From assembly GCF_009914755.1 (NCBI RefSeq), contig NC_060925.1: DNA of 64,000 bases; one strand, given 5' to 3'. The notes beneath the pieces are model-generated. The model was not told the DNA's origin and searched no databases. It saw only the letters and a program-made list of their open reading frames with translations. This document shows positions 12,522 to 16,990 of this stretch, in pieces. The stretch comes from the human T2T-CHM13v2.0 reference genome, Homo sapiens. Within the stretch, counting starts at the first letter, position 1; every line of letters begins with the position of its first letter. Position numbers and translations under genes: made by a program.

Positions 12522-13003
12522 GCAAGCCCCCCACAGTCTGGCCATAAACTGGCCCCAAAACTGGCCATAAGCAAAATCTCTGCAGCACTGTAACATGCCC
12601 ATAATGGCCCTAATGCCCACGCTGGAAGGTTGTGGGTTTACGGGAATGACGGCAAGGAACACCTGGCCCGCCCAGGGTGGAAAACCCCTTAAAGGCATTC
12701 TTAAGCCACAAACAAAAGCATGAGTGATCTGTGTCTTAAGGGCGTGTTCCTGCTGCAATTAATTCGGCACATCCCTTCGTTTCCCATAAGGGATACTTTT
12801 AGTTAATTCAACATCTATAGAAACAATGCTAATGACTGGTTTGCTGTTAATAAATACGTGGATAAATCTCTGTTCCGGGCTCTCAGCTCTGAAGGCTGTG
12901 AGACCCCTGATTTCCCACTTCACACCTCTATATTTCTCTGTGTGTCTTTTAATTCCTCTAGTGCTGCTGGGTTAGGGTCTCCCTGACTGAGCTGGTCTCG
13001 GCA
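12522..13003 (+). mobile_element. 5' LTR (MER9 type), missing its first ~8 nt
   Basis: Aligns to the 3' LTR from GCAAGCCCCCC onward; AATAAA at 12849; ends GGTCTCGGCA. Confidence 0.92.
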
Positions 13004-13114
13004 AGTGGCTTCTATTCCTGGGGGCTCGAATCCAGGTCAAAGGGTCGCAGGAGCGACGGTTGGAATGGAAAACTAGCTGGAGGACACCTGAGTACTCTTA
13101 AAGCAATCCCCGTG
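12962..13114 (+). CDS. ACOT11: ACOT11 isoform BFIT1 penultimate exon, exonised from ERV U5/PBS/leader (CCWVRVSLTELVSASGFYSWGLESRSKGRRSDGWNGKLAGGHLSTLKAIPV)
   Basis: Pyrimidine-rich acceptor tttaattcctctag|TGC; 153-nt open frame; donor GTG|gtgagt; peptide matches my recollection of the ACOT11 isoform 1 C-terminus. Confidence 0.88.
13006..13023 (+). other. Degenerate primer-binding site
   Basis: TGGCTTCTATTCCTGGGG two nt after the LTR terminal CA; tRNA identity not assignable. Confidence 0.6.
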
Positions 13115-13152
13115 GTGAGTAAGAAGGGGAGTCCGGAAGCGTCAGGGTAACA

Positions 13153-14469
13153 ATGGGATGGGTATGGGGTCTGGTTCGTTTCACCTTAGAACTTTTTCAC
13201 ACTGATAACGAGGAGGAACAACAGTATAGCGAAGTAACAGAAGAGGTTACAGAGCATGTTTATTTGCCAGCTGAAGCTAAAGCGGCAAAGGAAGGAGAGT
13301 TTCATCCCTACCCTTCTGCATCCCCTCATTATTATTTTGAAGAAAATGACTCCCCAGATCTTTCTTTTCCGGAGGACACTGGGCGAAAAGTAGTTGCCCC
13401 AGTGACTGTTCGAGCAGCGCCTTGAGCGACGTCTCTTAGTTCTATTCAGGCAGGAATTCAGCAAGCTAGACAAGAGGGTGATTTAGAGGCTTGGCAGTTC
13501 CCTGTTAGAATACACCCCCCAGATCAACAGGGAAGTATTACAGCTACATTTGAGCCTTTTCCTTTTAAATTACTCAGAGAATTAAAACAAGCAATAAATG
13601 AGTATGGACCAGGTTCTCCTTTTGTAATTGGACTGTTAAAGAATGTTACTGTTTCCAGTCGGATGATTCCTACTGACTGGGACGCTCTTACTTGAGCTTG
13701 TGTAACTCCTGCTCAGTTCTTACAATTTAAAACTTGGTGGGCAGATGAAGCTTCCATTCAGGTTGCTCGCAATGCCCAGGTCCAACCTCAAATTAATAGG
13801 ACTGCAGACCAACTTTCGGGGGTTGGCGGCTGGGCTGGTTTCGATGCACAAGTGGTCATGCAGGATGATGCCATAGAACAGCTTAGAGCAGTGTGCATTA
13901 GATCTTGGGAAAAAATCACTTCAGGTGGGGAACAATACCCTTCCTTTAGTGCTATAGAGCAGGGACCAAGGGAACCATAGGTTGATTTTATAGCTCGGTT
14001 ACAGGAGTCTCTTAAAAAGATGATTGCAGATTCGGCTGCTCAGGATACAGTGTTGCAGTTATTAGCTTTCGACAATGCTAATCCCGATGGCCAGGCTGCT
14101 CTGCGACCTATCAGAGGGAAAGCACATTTAGTTTATTATATCAAAGCCTATGATGGTATCGGAGGTAATCTGCGTAAAGCTACCTTGTTGGCAATGGCAA
14201 TGGCAGGACTGAGAGTGGATAAAGGAAATACTCCATTTCCTGGAGCTTGTTTTAACTGTGGGAAGCGTGGTCATACTAAAAAAGAATGTAGAAAAAATCA
14301 GCGAGTCAGGCCACCAGATAGGGGAAAAAAGAAAACTGCTGATCCTGAAATATGTCCAAAATGTAAAAAAGGAAAACACTGGGCTAGTCAGTGTCACTCT
14401 AAGTTGGATAAAGAAGGGAACCCAATTTCAGGAAACGCCATGAGGGGCCCGTCCCGGGCCCCGCTCTAA
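13153..14469 (+). pseudogene. HML-3 gag, interrupted by stops
   Basis: MHR-like QGPREP*VDFIARL (TAG at 13978); two CCHC knuckles CFNCGKRGHTKKEC and CPKCKKGKHWASQC. Confidence 0.9.
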
Positions 14470-15359
14470 ACCGGGGCGTTTCTGGCTCAGGCCATTCCCT
14501 CACCCCTGTACAATGTCTGTCCCCTGCCACAGCCGGTAGTGCTGCAGTAGATTTATGCTGCACAAAAGCTGTGAGCCTTCTGCCTGCGGAACCCCGGCAA
14601 AGGGTCCCAACAGGAGTCTGTGGACCCTTGCCAGTGGGTACAATAGGATTACTTTTAGGAAGGTCTAGTGTAAGTTTAAAAGGTATACAAATACATACAG
14701 GAGTCATTGATTCAGATTACAGTGGGGAAATCCAAATTGTTACATCTACTTCTGTTCTCTGGAAAGCAGAGCCAGGAGAGCGCATAGCACAGCTCCTGGT
14801 TGTGCCGTATGTGGGAATGGGAAAAAGTGAAATTAAACGAACAGGAGAATTTGGAAGCACAAATAAACAAGGCAAAGCAGCTTATTGGGTAAATCAAATT
14901 ACTGATAAACGTCCTACCTGCGAAATAACTATTCAAGAAAAGAAATTTAAAGGTTTGGTAGATAAAAGAACGGACATTTCACTCATTTCTGTACAGCACT
15001 GGCTGTCTGCGTGGCCAATTCAACCCGCTCAATTTAACATAGTTGGAGTTGGTAAAGCTGCTGAAGTATATCAAAGTAGTTATATATTGCATTGTGAGGG
15101 GCCCGATGGACAACCTGGGACTATTCAACCAATTATAACTTCTGTACCTATAAATTTATGGGGAAGAGATGTATTACAACAATGGGGAGCACAAGTTCTA
15201 ATTCCAGAACAATCATACAGCCCTCAAAGTCAGCATACAACGCATGAAATGGGGTATGTCCCTGGTATGGGACTAGAAAAAGATTTGCAAGGTTTGAAAG
15301 AACCGCTTCAAGCGGAAAAACAAAGTTCCCAGAAAAACAAAGTTCCTGCTAAAGATTAG
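14430..15359 (+). pseudogene. HML-3 pro (dUTPase + protease + G-patch-like), frame open throughout
   Basis: AGSAAVDL, GLLLGRSS, GVIDSDYSGEI, RIAQL, RTGEFGST; protease DTGAD degenerated to DKRTD; NLWGRD; MGYVPGMGL. Confidence 0.9.
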
Positions 15360-15369
15360 GAAAAAATTT

Positions 15370-16990
15370 TTGGTGGCAGCCATTGTTAAGCGTCCAGAAC
15401 CTATACCTTTAAAATGGTTAACAGATAAGCCAATTTGGATAGCACATTGGCCACTAAGTAAAGAAAAACTGGAGGTTTTAGAGAAATTAGTTGCTGAACA
15501 ATTAGAAAATGGGCACGTAACTCCAACATTTTCTCCTTGGAATTCTCCAGTTTTCATAATTAAGAAAAAATCAGGTAAATGGAGAATGTTAACTGACTTA
15601 AGAGCCATCAGTTCAGTTATACAACCTATGGGAGCATTACAGCCAGGATTGCCTTCTCCTGCTATAATTCCAAAAAATTGGCCTTTTAATAGTCATAGAT
15701 TTAAAAGACTGTTTCTTTACTATACCTTTAGCTGAGCAAGACTGCGAACAGTTTGCATTTACAATTCCTGCATTAAACAACCTGCAGCCTGCTAAGTGTT
15801 ATCATTGAAAAGTGTTGCCACAGTGCATGCCAAACAGCCCAACAATTTGCCAGACATATGTGGGGCAAGCAATTGAACCTACCCGTAAAAAATTTCCACA
15901 GTGTTACATTATTCACTGTCAACTAAAAACATTAAATGATTTTCAAAAATTACTAGGGGATATTAATTGGATACGACCTGCTCTAGGCATTCCTACCTAT
16001 GCCAGGAGTAATCTGTTTTCTATCCTTGGAGGAAATCCTAGTCTCACTAGCCCTCGGCAATTAGCAAAAGAGGCTGAGGCAGAGTTACAACTGATTGAGA
16101 AGCAAATCCATAAAGCTCAGATAAATAGAATAGATCCAGAGAAGACTCTAGATTTGCTAATCTTTTCAACTCAGCATTCACCTACTGGTGTTATTGTCCA
16201 AGAACAGGACTTAGTAGGGTGGCTTTTTCTTCCACATACTAATTCACAGACTCCAACTCCTTATTTAGATCAAATCGCTACTATGATAGGGATTGGGAGA
16301 ACTCGGATTGTTAAATTACATGGATATGATCCTGGAAAAATTACTGTCCCTCTCACAAAGGCACAAATACAGCAAGCTTTTATAAATAGTCTTACTTGGC
16401 AAACCCATTTAGCTGACTTTGTGGGTATTCTCGATAATCATTTTCCTAAAATGAAGCTATTTCAGTTTTTAAAATTCACTAATTGGATTCTCCCTAAAAT
16501 AACTAAATTTAAAACAATTGAAGGTGCTGAGAATGTTTTTACAGATGGGTCTAGTAATGGTAAAGCTTCTTATTCTGGCTCAAAAAGTAAAGTTTTTCAG
16601 ACGTCCTGTACTCAGCTCAAAAAGCGGAGCTTGTAGCGGTAATTGAGGTATTGACTGCTTTTGATATGCCTATTAATGGGATTTCTGATTCTTCATATGT
16701 GGTTCATTCCACACAGTTAATTGAAAATGCTCAGTTATGATTTCATACCGATGAACAACTGATGATAAAAACAAAAAAGGTGGAAAAATAGGGATTACAG
16801 AACAGCCCATACACAATTGCATCTAGCATTATTTGGTGAAGAGATCCAATAACAAAAAGTTGGGAAATAGGTAAAATAATAACTTGGGGTAGAGGTTATG
16901 CTTGCGTTTCTCCAGGCCAAAATCAACAGCCGATTTGGATACCTTCAAGACACCTGAAACCTTATCATGAGCCAGATGCCAAGGAAGAGA
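15370..16990 (+). pseudogene. HML-3 pol remnant (RT, RNase H, integrase C-terminus)
   Basis: [25 protein letters not shown] joined directly to [17 protein letters not shown] (YMDD region deleted); [18 protein letters not shown]...IWIPSRHLK; frameshifts and stops. Confidence 0.9.
16916..16957 (+). CDS. ACOT11: ACOT11 isoform BFIT1 terminal coding exon ([13 protein letters not shown]) at the ERV env splice acceptor
   Basis: cttgcgtttctccag|GCC AAA ATC AAC AGC CGA TTT GGA TAC CTT CAA GAC ACC TGA; phase 0 from 13114; candidate AATAAA at 17304, 17714 and 19329. Confidence 0.88.

What the first reader, a model, noticed from the sequence alone, without database searches (positions are those of the whole stretch)
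12962..16957. A host enzyme's C-terminus built from an endogenous retrovirus using the viral env splice: ACOT11 BFIT1
Seen in sequence: an acceptor in 5' LTR U5 (AG at 12960-12961) opens a 153-nt stop-free frame across U5, PBS and leader to GTG|GTGAGT at 13114, where a betaretroviral major splice donor is expected. It joins in phase 0 to the acceptor at 16916, the env-acceptor position near the end of integrase, giving 51+13 aa and a stop. The second exon is read +1 relative to integrase ([16 protein letters not shown]), so all 64 residues are new protein sequence, not captured viral protein. The same position in the 3' LTR reads CGC TGC TGA plus an 8-nt deletion, so only the 5' copy is open. 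Recalled: this peptide is the C-terminus of human ACOT11 isoform BFIT1, which replaces the end of the START domain found in BFIT2 and is absent from mouse. Inference: the isoform arose in primates by co-opting the provirus's subgenomic splice sites and may have altered lipid sensing. I do not know whether the ERV origin has been published.
Basis: partly seen in the sequence, partly recalled or inferred. Interest (0 to 1): 0.92.

Follow-up and report, generated by a model that had tools for sequence, protein, structure and literature searches.

The report
ERV-built tail of ACOT11 isoform
The last 64 amino acids of the longer human ACOT11 isoform (BFIT1/Them1a) are read from a broken HERV-K-type provirus through the provirus's own splice signals, replacing the conserved end of the enzyme's lipid-sensing domain; this is a real event of a known kind, and the new tail shows no sign of being conserved.

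Summary
A deleted betaretrovirus-like provirus (5' LTR 12504-13003, 3' LTR 18011-19476) lies 19 kb downstream of the ACOT11 exon that ends ...DQLTK. That exon's phase-0 donor can join an AG acceptor in LTR U5 (exon 12962-13114, 51 codons). The leader donor GTGAGT then joins an acceptor inside the integrase C-terminal domain (16916), read +1 to integrase, giving 13 codons and TGA.

Gorilla and chimpanzee ACOT11 models carry the same tail. The solved BFIT2 START domain diverges from it exactly after K543. All three splice sites are properties of the ERV family: they are kept in 26-29 of 29 other genomic copies.

The open frame is unremarkable (open in 10 of 29 copies and in 9% of shuffles). The tail evolves fast (4 of 64 residues differ between human and gorilla, against 0 in the START core). 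It replaces a segment that is nearly invariant across mammals.

The best reading is an ERV exon-trap that makes an alternative terminal exon pair and probably cripples the START lid. Adaptive retuning of lipid sensing is not shown. I found no paper stating the ERV origin, but supplementary catalogues could not be opened. This is a new member of a known kind, of moderate interest.

The parts
12504..13003 (+). 5' LTR (about 500 nt, TG...CA) of the provirus
   Evidence: Aligns to the 3' LTR over 485 columns, p-distance 0.080, K2P 0.085.
12849..12854 (+). LTR polyadenylation signal AATAAA, 107 nt upstream of the acceptor. It lies in the intron of the ACOT11 long isoform.
   Evidence: Kept in 27 of 29 other copies.
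12960..12961 (+). AG of the acceptor in LTR U5 (downstream of the LTR's AATAAA)
   Evidence: AG kept in 27 of 29 other genomic copies. Same border as the RefSeq exon (hub table).
12962..13114 (+). ERV exon 1: 42 nt of U5, then PBS-like and leader sequence. Encodes 51 aa (residues 544-594 of the 607-aa isoform).
   Evidence: Chimpanzee and gorilla ACOT11 models carry it at 98% and 96% identity.
13006..13023 (+). Degenerate primer-binding-site-like stretch starting TGG, 2 nt after the LTR. It is read here as codons.
   Evidence: Position only. The match to a lysine tRNA is recalled, not tested.
13115..13120 (+). Leader splice donor GTGAGT, 111 nt after the LTR end and 38 nt before the gag-like ATG
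   Evidence: GTGAGT kept in 26 of 29 other copies and GT in 29 of 29.
13153..14469 (+). gag remnant: capsid N- and C-terminal domains and two zinc knuckles, with the 5' part shortened
   Evidence: Pfam Gag_p24, Gag_p24_C, zf-CCHC_5 and zf-CCHC.
14412..15359 (+). pro frame with dUTPase, retroviral protease and G-patch
   Evidence: Pfam dUTPase 2.2e-22, RVP 4e-21, G-patch 1.7e-5.
15298..16740 (+). pol remnant: reverse transcriptase, thumb and part of RNase H, in broken frames
   Evidence: Pfam RVT_1, RVT_thumb 4.2e-25, RNase_H.
16840..17172 (+). Integrase C-terminal domain ORF. The N-terminal and catalytic parts of integrase are missing.
   Evidence: Pfam IN_DBD_C at residues 12-41. Matches MMTV integrase 7usf at 2.2e-9.
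16914..16915 (+). AG of the second acceptor, inside the integrase C-terminal domain and 51 nt before the env-like ATG at 16967
   Evidence: AG kept in 29 of 29 other copies. The env-like ATG is kept in 26 of 29.
16916..16957 (+). Coding part of ERV exon 2: 13 aa plus TGA, read +1 to integrase
   Evidence: The same 13-codon reading occurs in 23 of 29 other copies.
16958..21420 (+). Annotated 3' UTR. It runs through the env remnants, the 3' LTR and Alus. The annotated end abuts a genomic run of 24 A.
   Evidence: Hub table. The env TM end matches HERV-K Env 9nnd at 4.7e-7.
17997..18008 (+). Polypurine tract GAAGAAGGGAGA just before the 3' LTR
18011..19476 (+). 3' LTR, split by an insertion at 18348-19325. 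Its U5 copy of the acceptor is followed by CGC TGC TGA and an 8-nt deletion.
18348..19325 (-). About 978-nt secondary insertion with TG...CA ends in reverse orientation, flanked by GTTAA: a solo LTR of another ERV group
   Evidence: Assignment to the HML-2 LTR5 family is recalled, not tested.

Best explanation
A sense-oriented, internally deleted HERV-K-type provirus (probably HML-3/HERVK9 with MER9 LTRs) sits 19 kb past the ACOT11 exon that ends at Lys543. It acts as an exon trap. Sometimes transcription runs past the normal terminal exon (BFIT2, which starts 889 nt after the shared donor) and on through the whole antisense FAM151A gene. The phase-0 donor after Lys543 then joins a pyrimidine-rich AG acceptor that every copy of this LTR carries in U5. 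The provirus's own leader donor (GTGAGT, between the PBS and the gag ATG) next joins an acceptor in the integrase C-terminal domain, just upstream of the env start. This is most likely the pair of sites the virus used for its env mRNA. The outcome is a 51 + 13 residue tail and a stop in the last exon, so the transcript is not an exon-junction NMD target. The tail is non-viral, non-START sequence that was already open in the ancestral element. It replaces strand beta9 and the C-terminal helices of the START domain. The isoform (BFIT1/Them1a, 607 aa) therefore most likely has a defective or deregulated lipid-sensing domain. It behaves as a young, weakly constrained or unconstrained by-product rather than a tuned new sensor. 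Shown here: the anatomy, phases, junctions, the family-wide nature of the splice sites, and the fast change of the tail. Inferred: the identity of 16916 as the env acceptor, abundance, translation, and the effect on START.
For: Provirus: paired LTRs, PPT, and a gag / dUTPase-protease-G-patch / RT-RNase H / integrase-CTD / env-TM order.

Human upstream exon: ends GAC CAG CTG ACC AAG|gtgagg at window -6049. The BFIT2 terminal exon starts cag|GTA TCC TAC at -5160. The intron to 12962 is 19,010 nt.

Ape models: gorilla ...DQLTK|RCWVRV...[18 protein letters not shown], and chimpanzee with the same first ERV exon.

Structure: the 3fo5/6vvq BFIT2 chain is identical to gorilla up to K543 and then differs. 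Thorsell et al. (PMC3127847, passages read) say Tyr546 is Trp in BFIT1 and that the crystallised form is BFIT2.

Splice sites are family traits. The U5 AG is kept in 27 of 29 copies, GTGAGT in 26 of 29 and the integrase-CTD AG in 29 of 29. Two further predicted chimeric proteins from elsewhere use the same U5-leader exon (P0004, P0126). P0004 also uses the same junction into the 16916-equivalent, in another phase.

No sign of constraint. Human versus gorilla tail differs at 4 of 64 residues, against 0 in the START core; Fisher p = 0.003. The replaced BFIT2 tail is nearly invariant: 46 of the 50 stored proteins containing DQLTK carry it whole. The ERV tail scores -1.3 bits against an HMM of 23 distinct BFIT2 tails, and 186 of 500 shuffles do as well. 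BLASTP finds no similarity.

The START domain regulates the thioesterase by binding fatty acids and LPC (PMC10663673, passages read).
Against: No RNA-seq, long-read, Ribo-seq or proteomic data could be consulted. Abundance and translation of the isoform therefore rest on the RefSeq annotation and on predicted ape models.

The chimpanzee model reads through the donor instead of splicing. The annotated 3' end lies at a genomic A-run, which suggests oligo-dT internal priming of the founding cDNA.

The env-acceptor identity of 16916 is positional only. A second AG at 16948-16949 is also kept in 29 of 29 copies. A hunt for retro-copies of the spliced junction found none: 0 of 6 long matches were spliced. 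P0004 is a weak model, because its N-terminus matches many dispersed genomic places.

Four substitutions are a small sample. Intactness in three closely related apes is expected even without selection.

The frame is intact in human and gorilla, and Trp sits where the ligand-contacting Tyr546 was. Some function is therefore not excluded.
Confidence: 0.75

Rival explanations
1. Adaptive co-option: the ERV tail was retained because it gives hominids a Them1 isoform with altered lipid sensing, for example Trp546 in place of the head-group-binding Tyr546 and one C-terminal helix instead of two.
For: The frame and stop are intact in human and gorilla, and the first ERV exon is intact in chimpanzee. 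Thorsell et al. suggest that BFIT1 and BFIT2 could differ in ligand specificity and that BFIT1 probably has a single C-terminal helix. The Pfam START profile extends through the tail, but see the circularity caveat in the full report.
Against: The tail sequence is essentially that of other copies of the element; it is open in the same phase in 10 of 29 copies and gives the same 13-aa end in 23 of 29, so it was not shaped after capture. It differs at 4 of 64 residues between human and gorilla, against 0 in the core. Two of those changes are on the human line. It has no similarity to the segment it replaces, and that segment is nearly invariant in mammals. The RefSeq 'selected' transcript is BFIT2 (hub table), and the Them1 field works with Them1b.
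Confidence: 0.12
2. The two ERV exons are not a genuine ACOT11 product. They belong to an LTR-driven proviral (env-like) transcript or to a rare aberrant cDNA, and were joined to ACOT11 by annotation.
For: The annotated 3' end abuts a run of 24 genomic A with no AATAAA or ATTAAA nearby. The isoform needs a 19-kb intron that skips a strong proximal terminal exon. The chimpanzee model retains the intron.
Against: The exon starts exactly at an AG acceptor 107 nt downstream of the LTR's own poly(A) signal, not at an LTR start site. The upstream donor is in the matching phase. An independent gorilla gene model joins the same three exons. The isoform was described as a cDNA-derived splice variant with 13 extra residues (PMC10663673 citing Adams 2001).
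Confidence: 0.06
3. The ERV peptide truly mimics a generic START C-terminus, so the isoform keeps a complete START fold by coincidence.
For: The human 51-aa peptide alone hits only Pfam START among 24,736 models (E 0.0098, 15.7 bits), on profile positions 163-205 of 207, which is exactly the part it replaces. In gorilla the tail adds 14 bits (144.4 vs 130.2), whereas the authentic BFIT2 tail adds about 2 and stops at profile position 171.
Against: A chance match of that kind is so improbable that the likelier cause is circularity: the Pfam model may have been trained on the human canonical sequence, which is recalled to be the 607-aa BFIT1 form. Related copies of the peptide at 77-88% identity give no hit. 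phmmer of the peptide finds no START protein among 1.84 billion representatives or in the PDB. The peptide is encoded by LTR, PBS and leader sequence.
Confidence: 0.04

Closest known systems
Human leptin receptor short isoform whose C-terminus is encoded by an endogenous-retrovirus LTR (Kapitonov and Jurka 1999, J Mol Evol 48:248; only the title was seen, in reference lists)
   Same: An ERV LTR induces alternative splicing and supplies a new carboxy-terminal coding sequence and stop for a host protein.
   Different: In ACOT11 the tail spans two exons. It uses a U5 acceptor together with the provirus's internal donor and a second acceptor in integrase. It replaces part of a folded domain rather than being appended. 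Details of the LEPR case are recalled, not read.
LTR exonization catalogue and the IL22RA2 MaLR exon (Piriyapongsa et al. 2007, PMC2008291; abstract and passages read)
   Same: LTR-derived protein-coding exons in human genes (50 exons in 45 genes, 3 of them containing both LTR and internal sequence), including primate-specific alternative exons.
   Different: ACOT11, THEA, BFIT and MER9 are not in the main text. The supplementary tables could not be opened, so it is unknown whether this exon is listed.
ERVs supplying the 3' ends of host genes (HHLA2/HHLA3, Mager et al. 1999; only the title was seen, in a reference list) and mouse ETn/IAP intronic insertions that trap splicing (recalled)
   Same: A sense-oriented ERV downstream of or inside a gene captures transcripts through cryptic LTR acceptors, native donors and poly(A) signals.
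   Different: Here the product is a RefSeq-annotated coding isoform, not a mutant allele or only a poly(A) donor. The annotated end is not at the LTR poly(A) site.
Retroviral env subgenomic splicing (HERV-K HML-2: env mRNA spliced from the full-length proviral transcript; PMC6091006, passages read)
   Same: A donor in the leader between the PBS and gag, and an acceptor near the end of pol just before the env ATG.
   Different: The transcript is host-initiated and the reading frame is the host's. That 16916 is the HML-3 env acceptor was not shown directly.

Membership tests
Betaretrovirus-like (class II, HERV-K supergroup) provirus | Two LTRs in direct orientation flanking an internal region | tested here: met
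   12504-13003 versus 18011-19476, p-distance 0.080 over 485 columns.
Betaretrovirus-like (class II, HERV-K supergroup) provirus | gag-pro-pol-env order, with dUTPase and G-patch in the pro frame | tested here: met
   Pfam Gag_p24, Gag_p24_C, zf-CCHC_5, dUTPase, RVP, G-patch, RVT_1, RVT_thumb, RNase_H and IN_DBD_C in that order. MMTV integrase and HERV-K Env TM are the best PDB matches.
Betaretrovirus-like (class II, HERV-K supergroup) provirus | PBS after the 5' LTR and PPT before the 3' LTR | tested here: inconclusive
   PPT GAAGAAGGGAGA at 17997-18008. A TGG-starting stretch lies 2 nt after the LTR. Complementarity to a lysine tRNA was not tested; there is no tRNA gene in the window.
Betaretrovirus-like (class II, HERV-K supergroup) provirus | Target-site duplication flanking the LTRs | tested here: not met
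   The flanks are CCTCTA and GAGGTG. The 3' flank is a 5'-truncated Alu, which suggests a later rearrangement.
HML-3 / HERVK9-int with MER9 LTRs | Sequence match to the Repbase/Dfam HERVK9 and MER9 consensus sequences | not testable with these tools
No repeat library was available. The naming (HML3 = HERVK9, LTRs MER9a1-3) was seen in PMC5753468. The element is multi-copy in this genome: 1052 first-look candidates for the leader and 244 for the integrase end.
TE/ERV exonization giving an alternative protein C-terminus | Exon borders and stop codon lie inside the element, and the exons are joined in frame to host exons | tested here: met
   plus the hub's RefSeq exon table.
TE/ERV exonization giving an alternative protein C-terminus | Transcript and protein evidence for the junctions | not testable with these tools
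   Only the annotation and predicted ape models were available. No RNA-seq, Ribo-seq or proteomics data were accessible.
Domesticated (co-opted) ERV-derived coding sequence | Purifying selection on the ERV-derived codons across species | tested here: not met
   4 of 64 residues differ between human and gorilla, against 0 in the START core, Fisher p = 0.003. The sample is small and covers only three apes.
START domain (does the ERV tail count as part of it?) | The C-terminal strand and helix match the family profile and fold | tested here: inconclusive
   The Pfam START profile extends through the tail, adding 14 bits; the peptide alone scores E 0.0098. This is probably circular. There is no similarity to BFIT2 tails and no START hits by phmmer.

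The most novel reading that the evidence does not exclude
HML-3 proviruses carry a built-in three-site exon trap: a U5 acceptor, the leader donor and an acceptor in the integrase C-terminal domain. It is kept in about 90-100% of the copies examined. This trap would have repeatedly written new primate-specific protein ends. In ACOT11 it would swap out the START lid, giving great apes a Them1 isoform whose thioesterase is no longer governed by fatty acid or LPC binding and which START-directed inhibitors would miss.
Probability: 0.15. Interest if true: 0.6.

Novelty: new member of a known kind. Interest (0 to 1): 0.35.

Why it matters
ACOT11/Them1 is being pursued as a metabolic drug target through its START domain (PMC10663673). 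That paper describes the two human isoforms as differing by '13 additional amino acids'. In fact the last 51 residues of the domain are exchanged for 64 unrelated residues encoded by a retrovirus, and these include a ligand-contacting position. Work that uses the 607-aa sequence, or START-domain profiles possibly trained on it, should take this into account. The locus is also a clean example of a provirus's own donor and acceptor being reused by a host gene.

Tried and rejected
There is no fold evidence either way.

2. The Pfam START hit of the ERV peptide is rejected as evidence of mimicry because it is probably circular. I could not inspect the seed.

3. The peptide's best PDB matches were mycobacterial dUTPase C-termini (E 0.076-0.33). 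I treat these as chance, since the peptide comes from LTR and leader DNA.

4. I looked for retro-copies of a spliced leader|integrase junction in the genome, using P0004 as the query. All 6 matches that ran past the junction were unspliced copies. A direct junction query was not typed.

5. A scan of viral contigs with the integrase/env-leader ORF found no relative. Rfam found nothing in 9000-24000.

6. No target-site duplication was found.

7. Earlier findings, the protein Atlas and supplementary files were closed. Adams 2001 and Tillman 2020 were not held.

8. Literature: BFIT1, ACOT11+HERV (10), ACOT11+exonization (12), ACOT11+retrovir (14), ACOT11+LTR (40) and Them1a/isoform terms (51) returned no paper that states an ERV origin. 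A six-term search was too broad to be informative.

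
Full report
**Observation.**
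- AG lies at 12960-12961 behind a pyrimidine-rich tract (13 of 17 at -20..-4).
- Bases 12962-13114 translate without a stop to 51 residues, CCWVRV...KAIPV. The other two frames of the exon contain stops.
- The donor reads GTG|GTGAGT at 13114/13115.
- The acceptor ...tttctccag|GCC at 16915/16916 opens [13 protein letters not shown] followed by TGA at 16955-16957.
- This reading is +1 to the integrase ORF 16840-17172. Residues 12-41 of that ORF match Pfam IN_DBD_C, and the ORF matches MMTV integrase chains (7usf, 2.2e-9).
- The same site in the 3' LTR reads CGC TGC TGA and has an 8-nt gap.
- The borders equal the RefSeq exons in the hub's table.

**The element.** The region is a betaretrovirus-like provirus.
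- The LTRs are 12504-13003 and 18011-19476. They differ at 39 of 485 aligned positions (K2P 0.085; 17 of the differences are at CpG). That gives roughly 19-33 Myr at 0.13-0.23% per site per Myr.
- A polypurine tract lies at 17997-18008, and a TGG-starting PBS-like stretch begins 2 nt after the 5' LTR.
- The Pfam domains, in order, are Gag_p24, Gag_p24_C, zinc knuckles, dUTPase, protease, G-patch, RT, thumb, RNase H and the integrase C-terminal domain. The env transmembrane end matches HERV-K Env (9nnd, 4.7e-7).
- Most of integrase, most of env and the 5' part of gag are missing.
- I found no target-site duplication. The 3' flank is a 5'-truncated Alu.
- Assignment to HML-3/HERVK9 with MER9 LTRs is recalled. 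The naming was seen in PMC5753468, but no repeat library was available to test this copy.

**Link to ACOT11.** The window's own assembly could be searched.
- The human exon encoding ...GDQLTK ends AAG|gtgagg at window -6049, in phase 0.
- The normal terminal exon (BFIT2) starts 889 nt later, cag|GTA TCC TAC, giving VSYY...SLQTL and a stop.
- The intron to 12962 is 19,010 nt and crosses the whole FAM151A gene in antisense (hub table).
- A search with the 51-aa peptide returned a gorilla ACOT11 model ending ...DQLTK|RCWVRV...[18 protein letters not shown]. It also returned a chimpanzee model with the same first ERV exon that then reads through the donor.
- The solved START chain 3fo5/6vvq (BFIT2) is identical to gorilla up to K543 and then reads VSYY.
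- Thorsell et al. (PMC3127847, passages read) say that the crystallised form is BFIT2 (R339-L594) and that Tyr546 is Trp in BFIT1. This fits C544-C545-W546.
- Krumm et al. (PMC10663673, passages read) describe isoform 'a' as having 13 additional C-terminal residues. In fact 51 residues are replaced by 64.

**The splice sites belong to the ERV family.**
- U5-leader region: in the 29 best other genomic copies (of 40 scored and 1052 first-look candidates), the U5 AG is kept in 27. GTGAGT is kept in 26, and GT in all 29.
- Integrase end: in the 29 best copies (of 40 scored and 244 candidates), the AG is kept in 29, the 13-codon reading in 23 and the env-like ATG in 26.
- The donor lies 111 nt after the LTR and 38 nt before the gag-like ATG. 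The second acceptor lies 51 nt before the env-like ATG.
- Two predicted proteins from elsewhere use the same U5-leader exon: P0004 from a green monkey and the unnamed P0126. P0004 also joins it to the 16916-equivalent in another phase. P0004 is a weak model, because its N-terminus matches many dispersed genomic places.
- The 'viral env splice' reading is therefore well placed but positional. A second AG at 16948-16949 is equally conserved. A hunt for retro-copies of the spliced junction found none: 0 of 6 long matches were spliced.

**Chance and ancestry.**
- The open frame is not special. 468 of 5000 shuffles of the exon are open. The exon is open in the acceptor phase in 10 of 29 other copies, and 9 of these also keep both sites and a length divisible by 3.
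- ORFs from other copies read ...SSSAAGLGSP..., which implies G where the 3' LTR has TGA and also the 8 nt that the 3' LTR lacks. The 3' LTR states are therefore derived.

**Function.**
- Of the stored proteins, 50 contain the motif DQLTK. 46 of them carry the whole BFIT2 tail nearly unchanged, from primates to elephant and tenrec. 2 begin like it and then diverge. Only the chimpanzee and gorilla models carry the ERV tail.
- The ERV tail has no similarity to the BFIT2 tail. BLASTP finds nothing. It scores -1.3 bits against an HMM of 23 distinct BFIT2 tails, and 186 of 500 shuffles do as well.
- Human and gorilla differ at 4 of 64 tail residues. The core is identical over the aligned stretch, apart from the construct's tag residue. 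Fisher p = 0.003 as computed on 0/206 against 4/64.
- Two of the changes, R544C and H561Y, are on the human line relative to chimpanzee and gorilla.
- The tail is more basic and richer in Gly/Ser/Pro than the one it replaces.
- The START domain controls the thioesterase by binding fatty acids and LPC, and the replaced part includes ligand-contacting Tyr546 and the C-terminal helices. The likeliest effect is therefore a disabled or deregulated sensor. This is inference, not a result.

**An oddity.**
- The human 51-aa peptide alone hits Pfam START and nothing else (E 0.0098), on profile positions 163-205 of 207.
- In gorilla the tail raises the START score from 130.2 to 144.4 bits. The true BFIT2 tail reaches only profile position 171, at 132.3 bits.
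- The peptide is LTR and leader sequence, related copies give no hit, and phmmer finds no START protein. I therefore think the profile was trained on the human 607-aa sequence. I could not see the seed.

**Novelty.**
- Searches of main texts found no statement of the ERV origin.
- Piriyapongsa et al. 2007 list 50 LTR-derived coding exons only in a supplement that I could not open. Prior listing in a catalogue therefore cannot be excluded.
- The mechanism is of a known kind, as in the LEPR LTR-encoded C-terminus (title seen).

**Not done.** Structure prediction (closed); any RNA or protein expression data; primate genomes beyond protein models.

Noticed in passing
window 18348-19325: The 3' LTR is split by an insertion of about 978 nt. 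The insertion has TG...CA ends in reverse orientation and is flanked by GTTAA, directly upstream of the LTR's AATAAA. It looks like a solo LTR of a younger HERV-K group (LTR5-like, recalled).
   Followed up: partly
window 21380-21470: The annotated 3' end of the long ACOT11 transcript (21420) abuts a genomic run of 24 A at an Alu tail, with no AATAAA or ATTAAA nearby. This suggests internal oligo-dT priming. The real poly(A) site may be elsewhere, for example after the AATAAA at 19329.
   Followed up: partly
window 12962-13114 (peptide P0001): The Pfam START profile (PF01852) scores this LTR/leader-encoded peptide as the START C-terminus (E 0.0098, profile 163-205 of 207), better than the authentic BFIT2 tail. 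The profile was probably trained on the ERV-chimeric human sequence.
   Followed up: partly
window -6049 to 12961 (mostly outside or at the start of the window): The 19-kb intron of the long isoform skips the BFIT2 terminal exon and its poly(A) site. It runs antisense through the whole FAM151A gene and its promoter.
   Followed up: partly
P0004 and P0126 (database proteins, other loci): Two further predicted chimeric proteins use the same U5-leader exon. One of them also joins it to the integrase-end acceptor in another phase. The cassette may be trapped repeatedly.
   Followed up: partly
window 12498-12503 and 19477-19560: The provirus has no target-site duplication. Its 3' LTR abuts an Alu that starts at about its 45th base, sharing GGC with the LTR end, which suggests a later deletion or recombination.
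   Followed up: no
PMC10663673, Methods: The Them1 literature describes the human isoforms as differing by 13 extra C-terminal residues. In fact they differ in their last 64 versus 51 residues.
   Followed up: yes
P0001 vs PDB: The peptide's only PDB matches at E<=10 are the C-terminal tails of mycobacterial dUTPases (E 0.076-0.33). I take these as chance.
   Followed up: no
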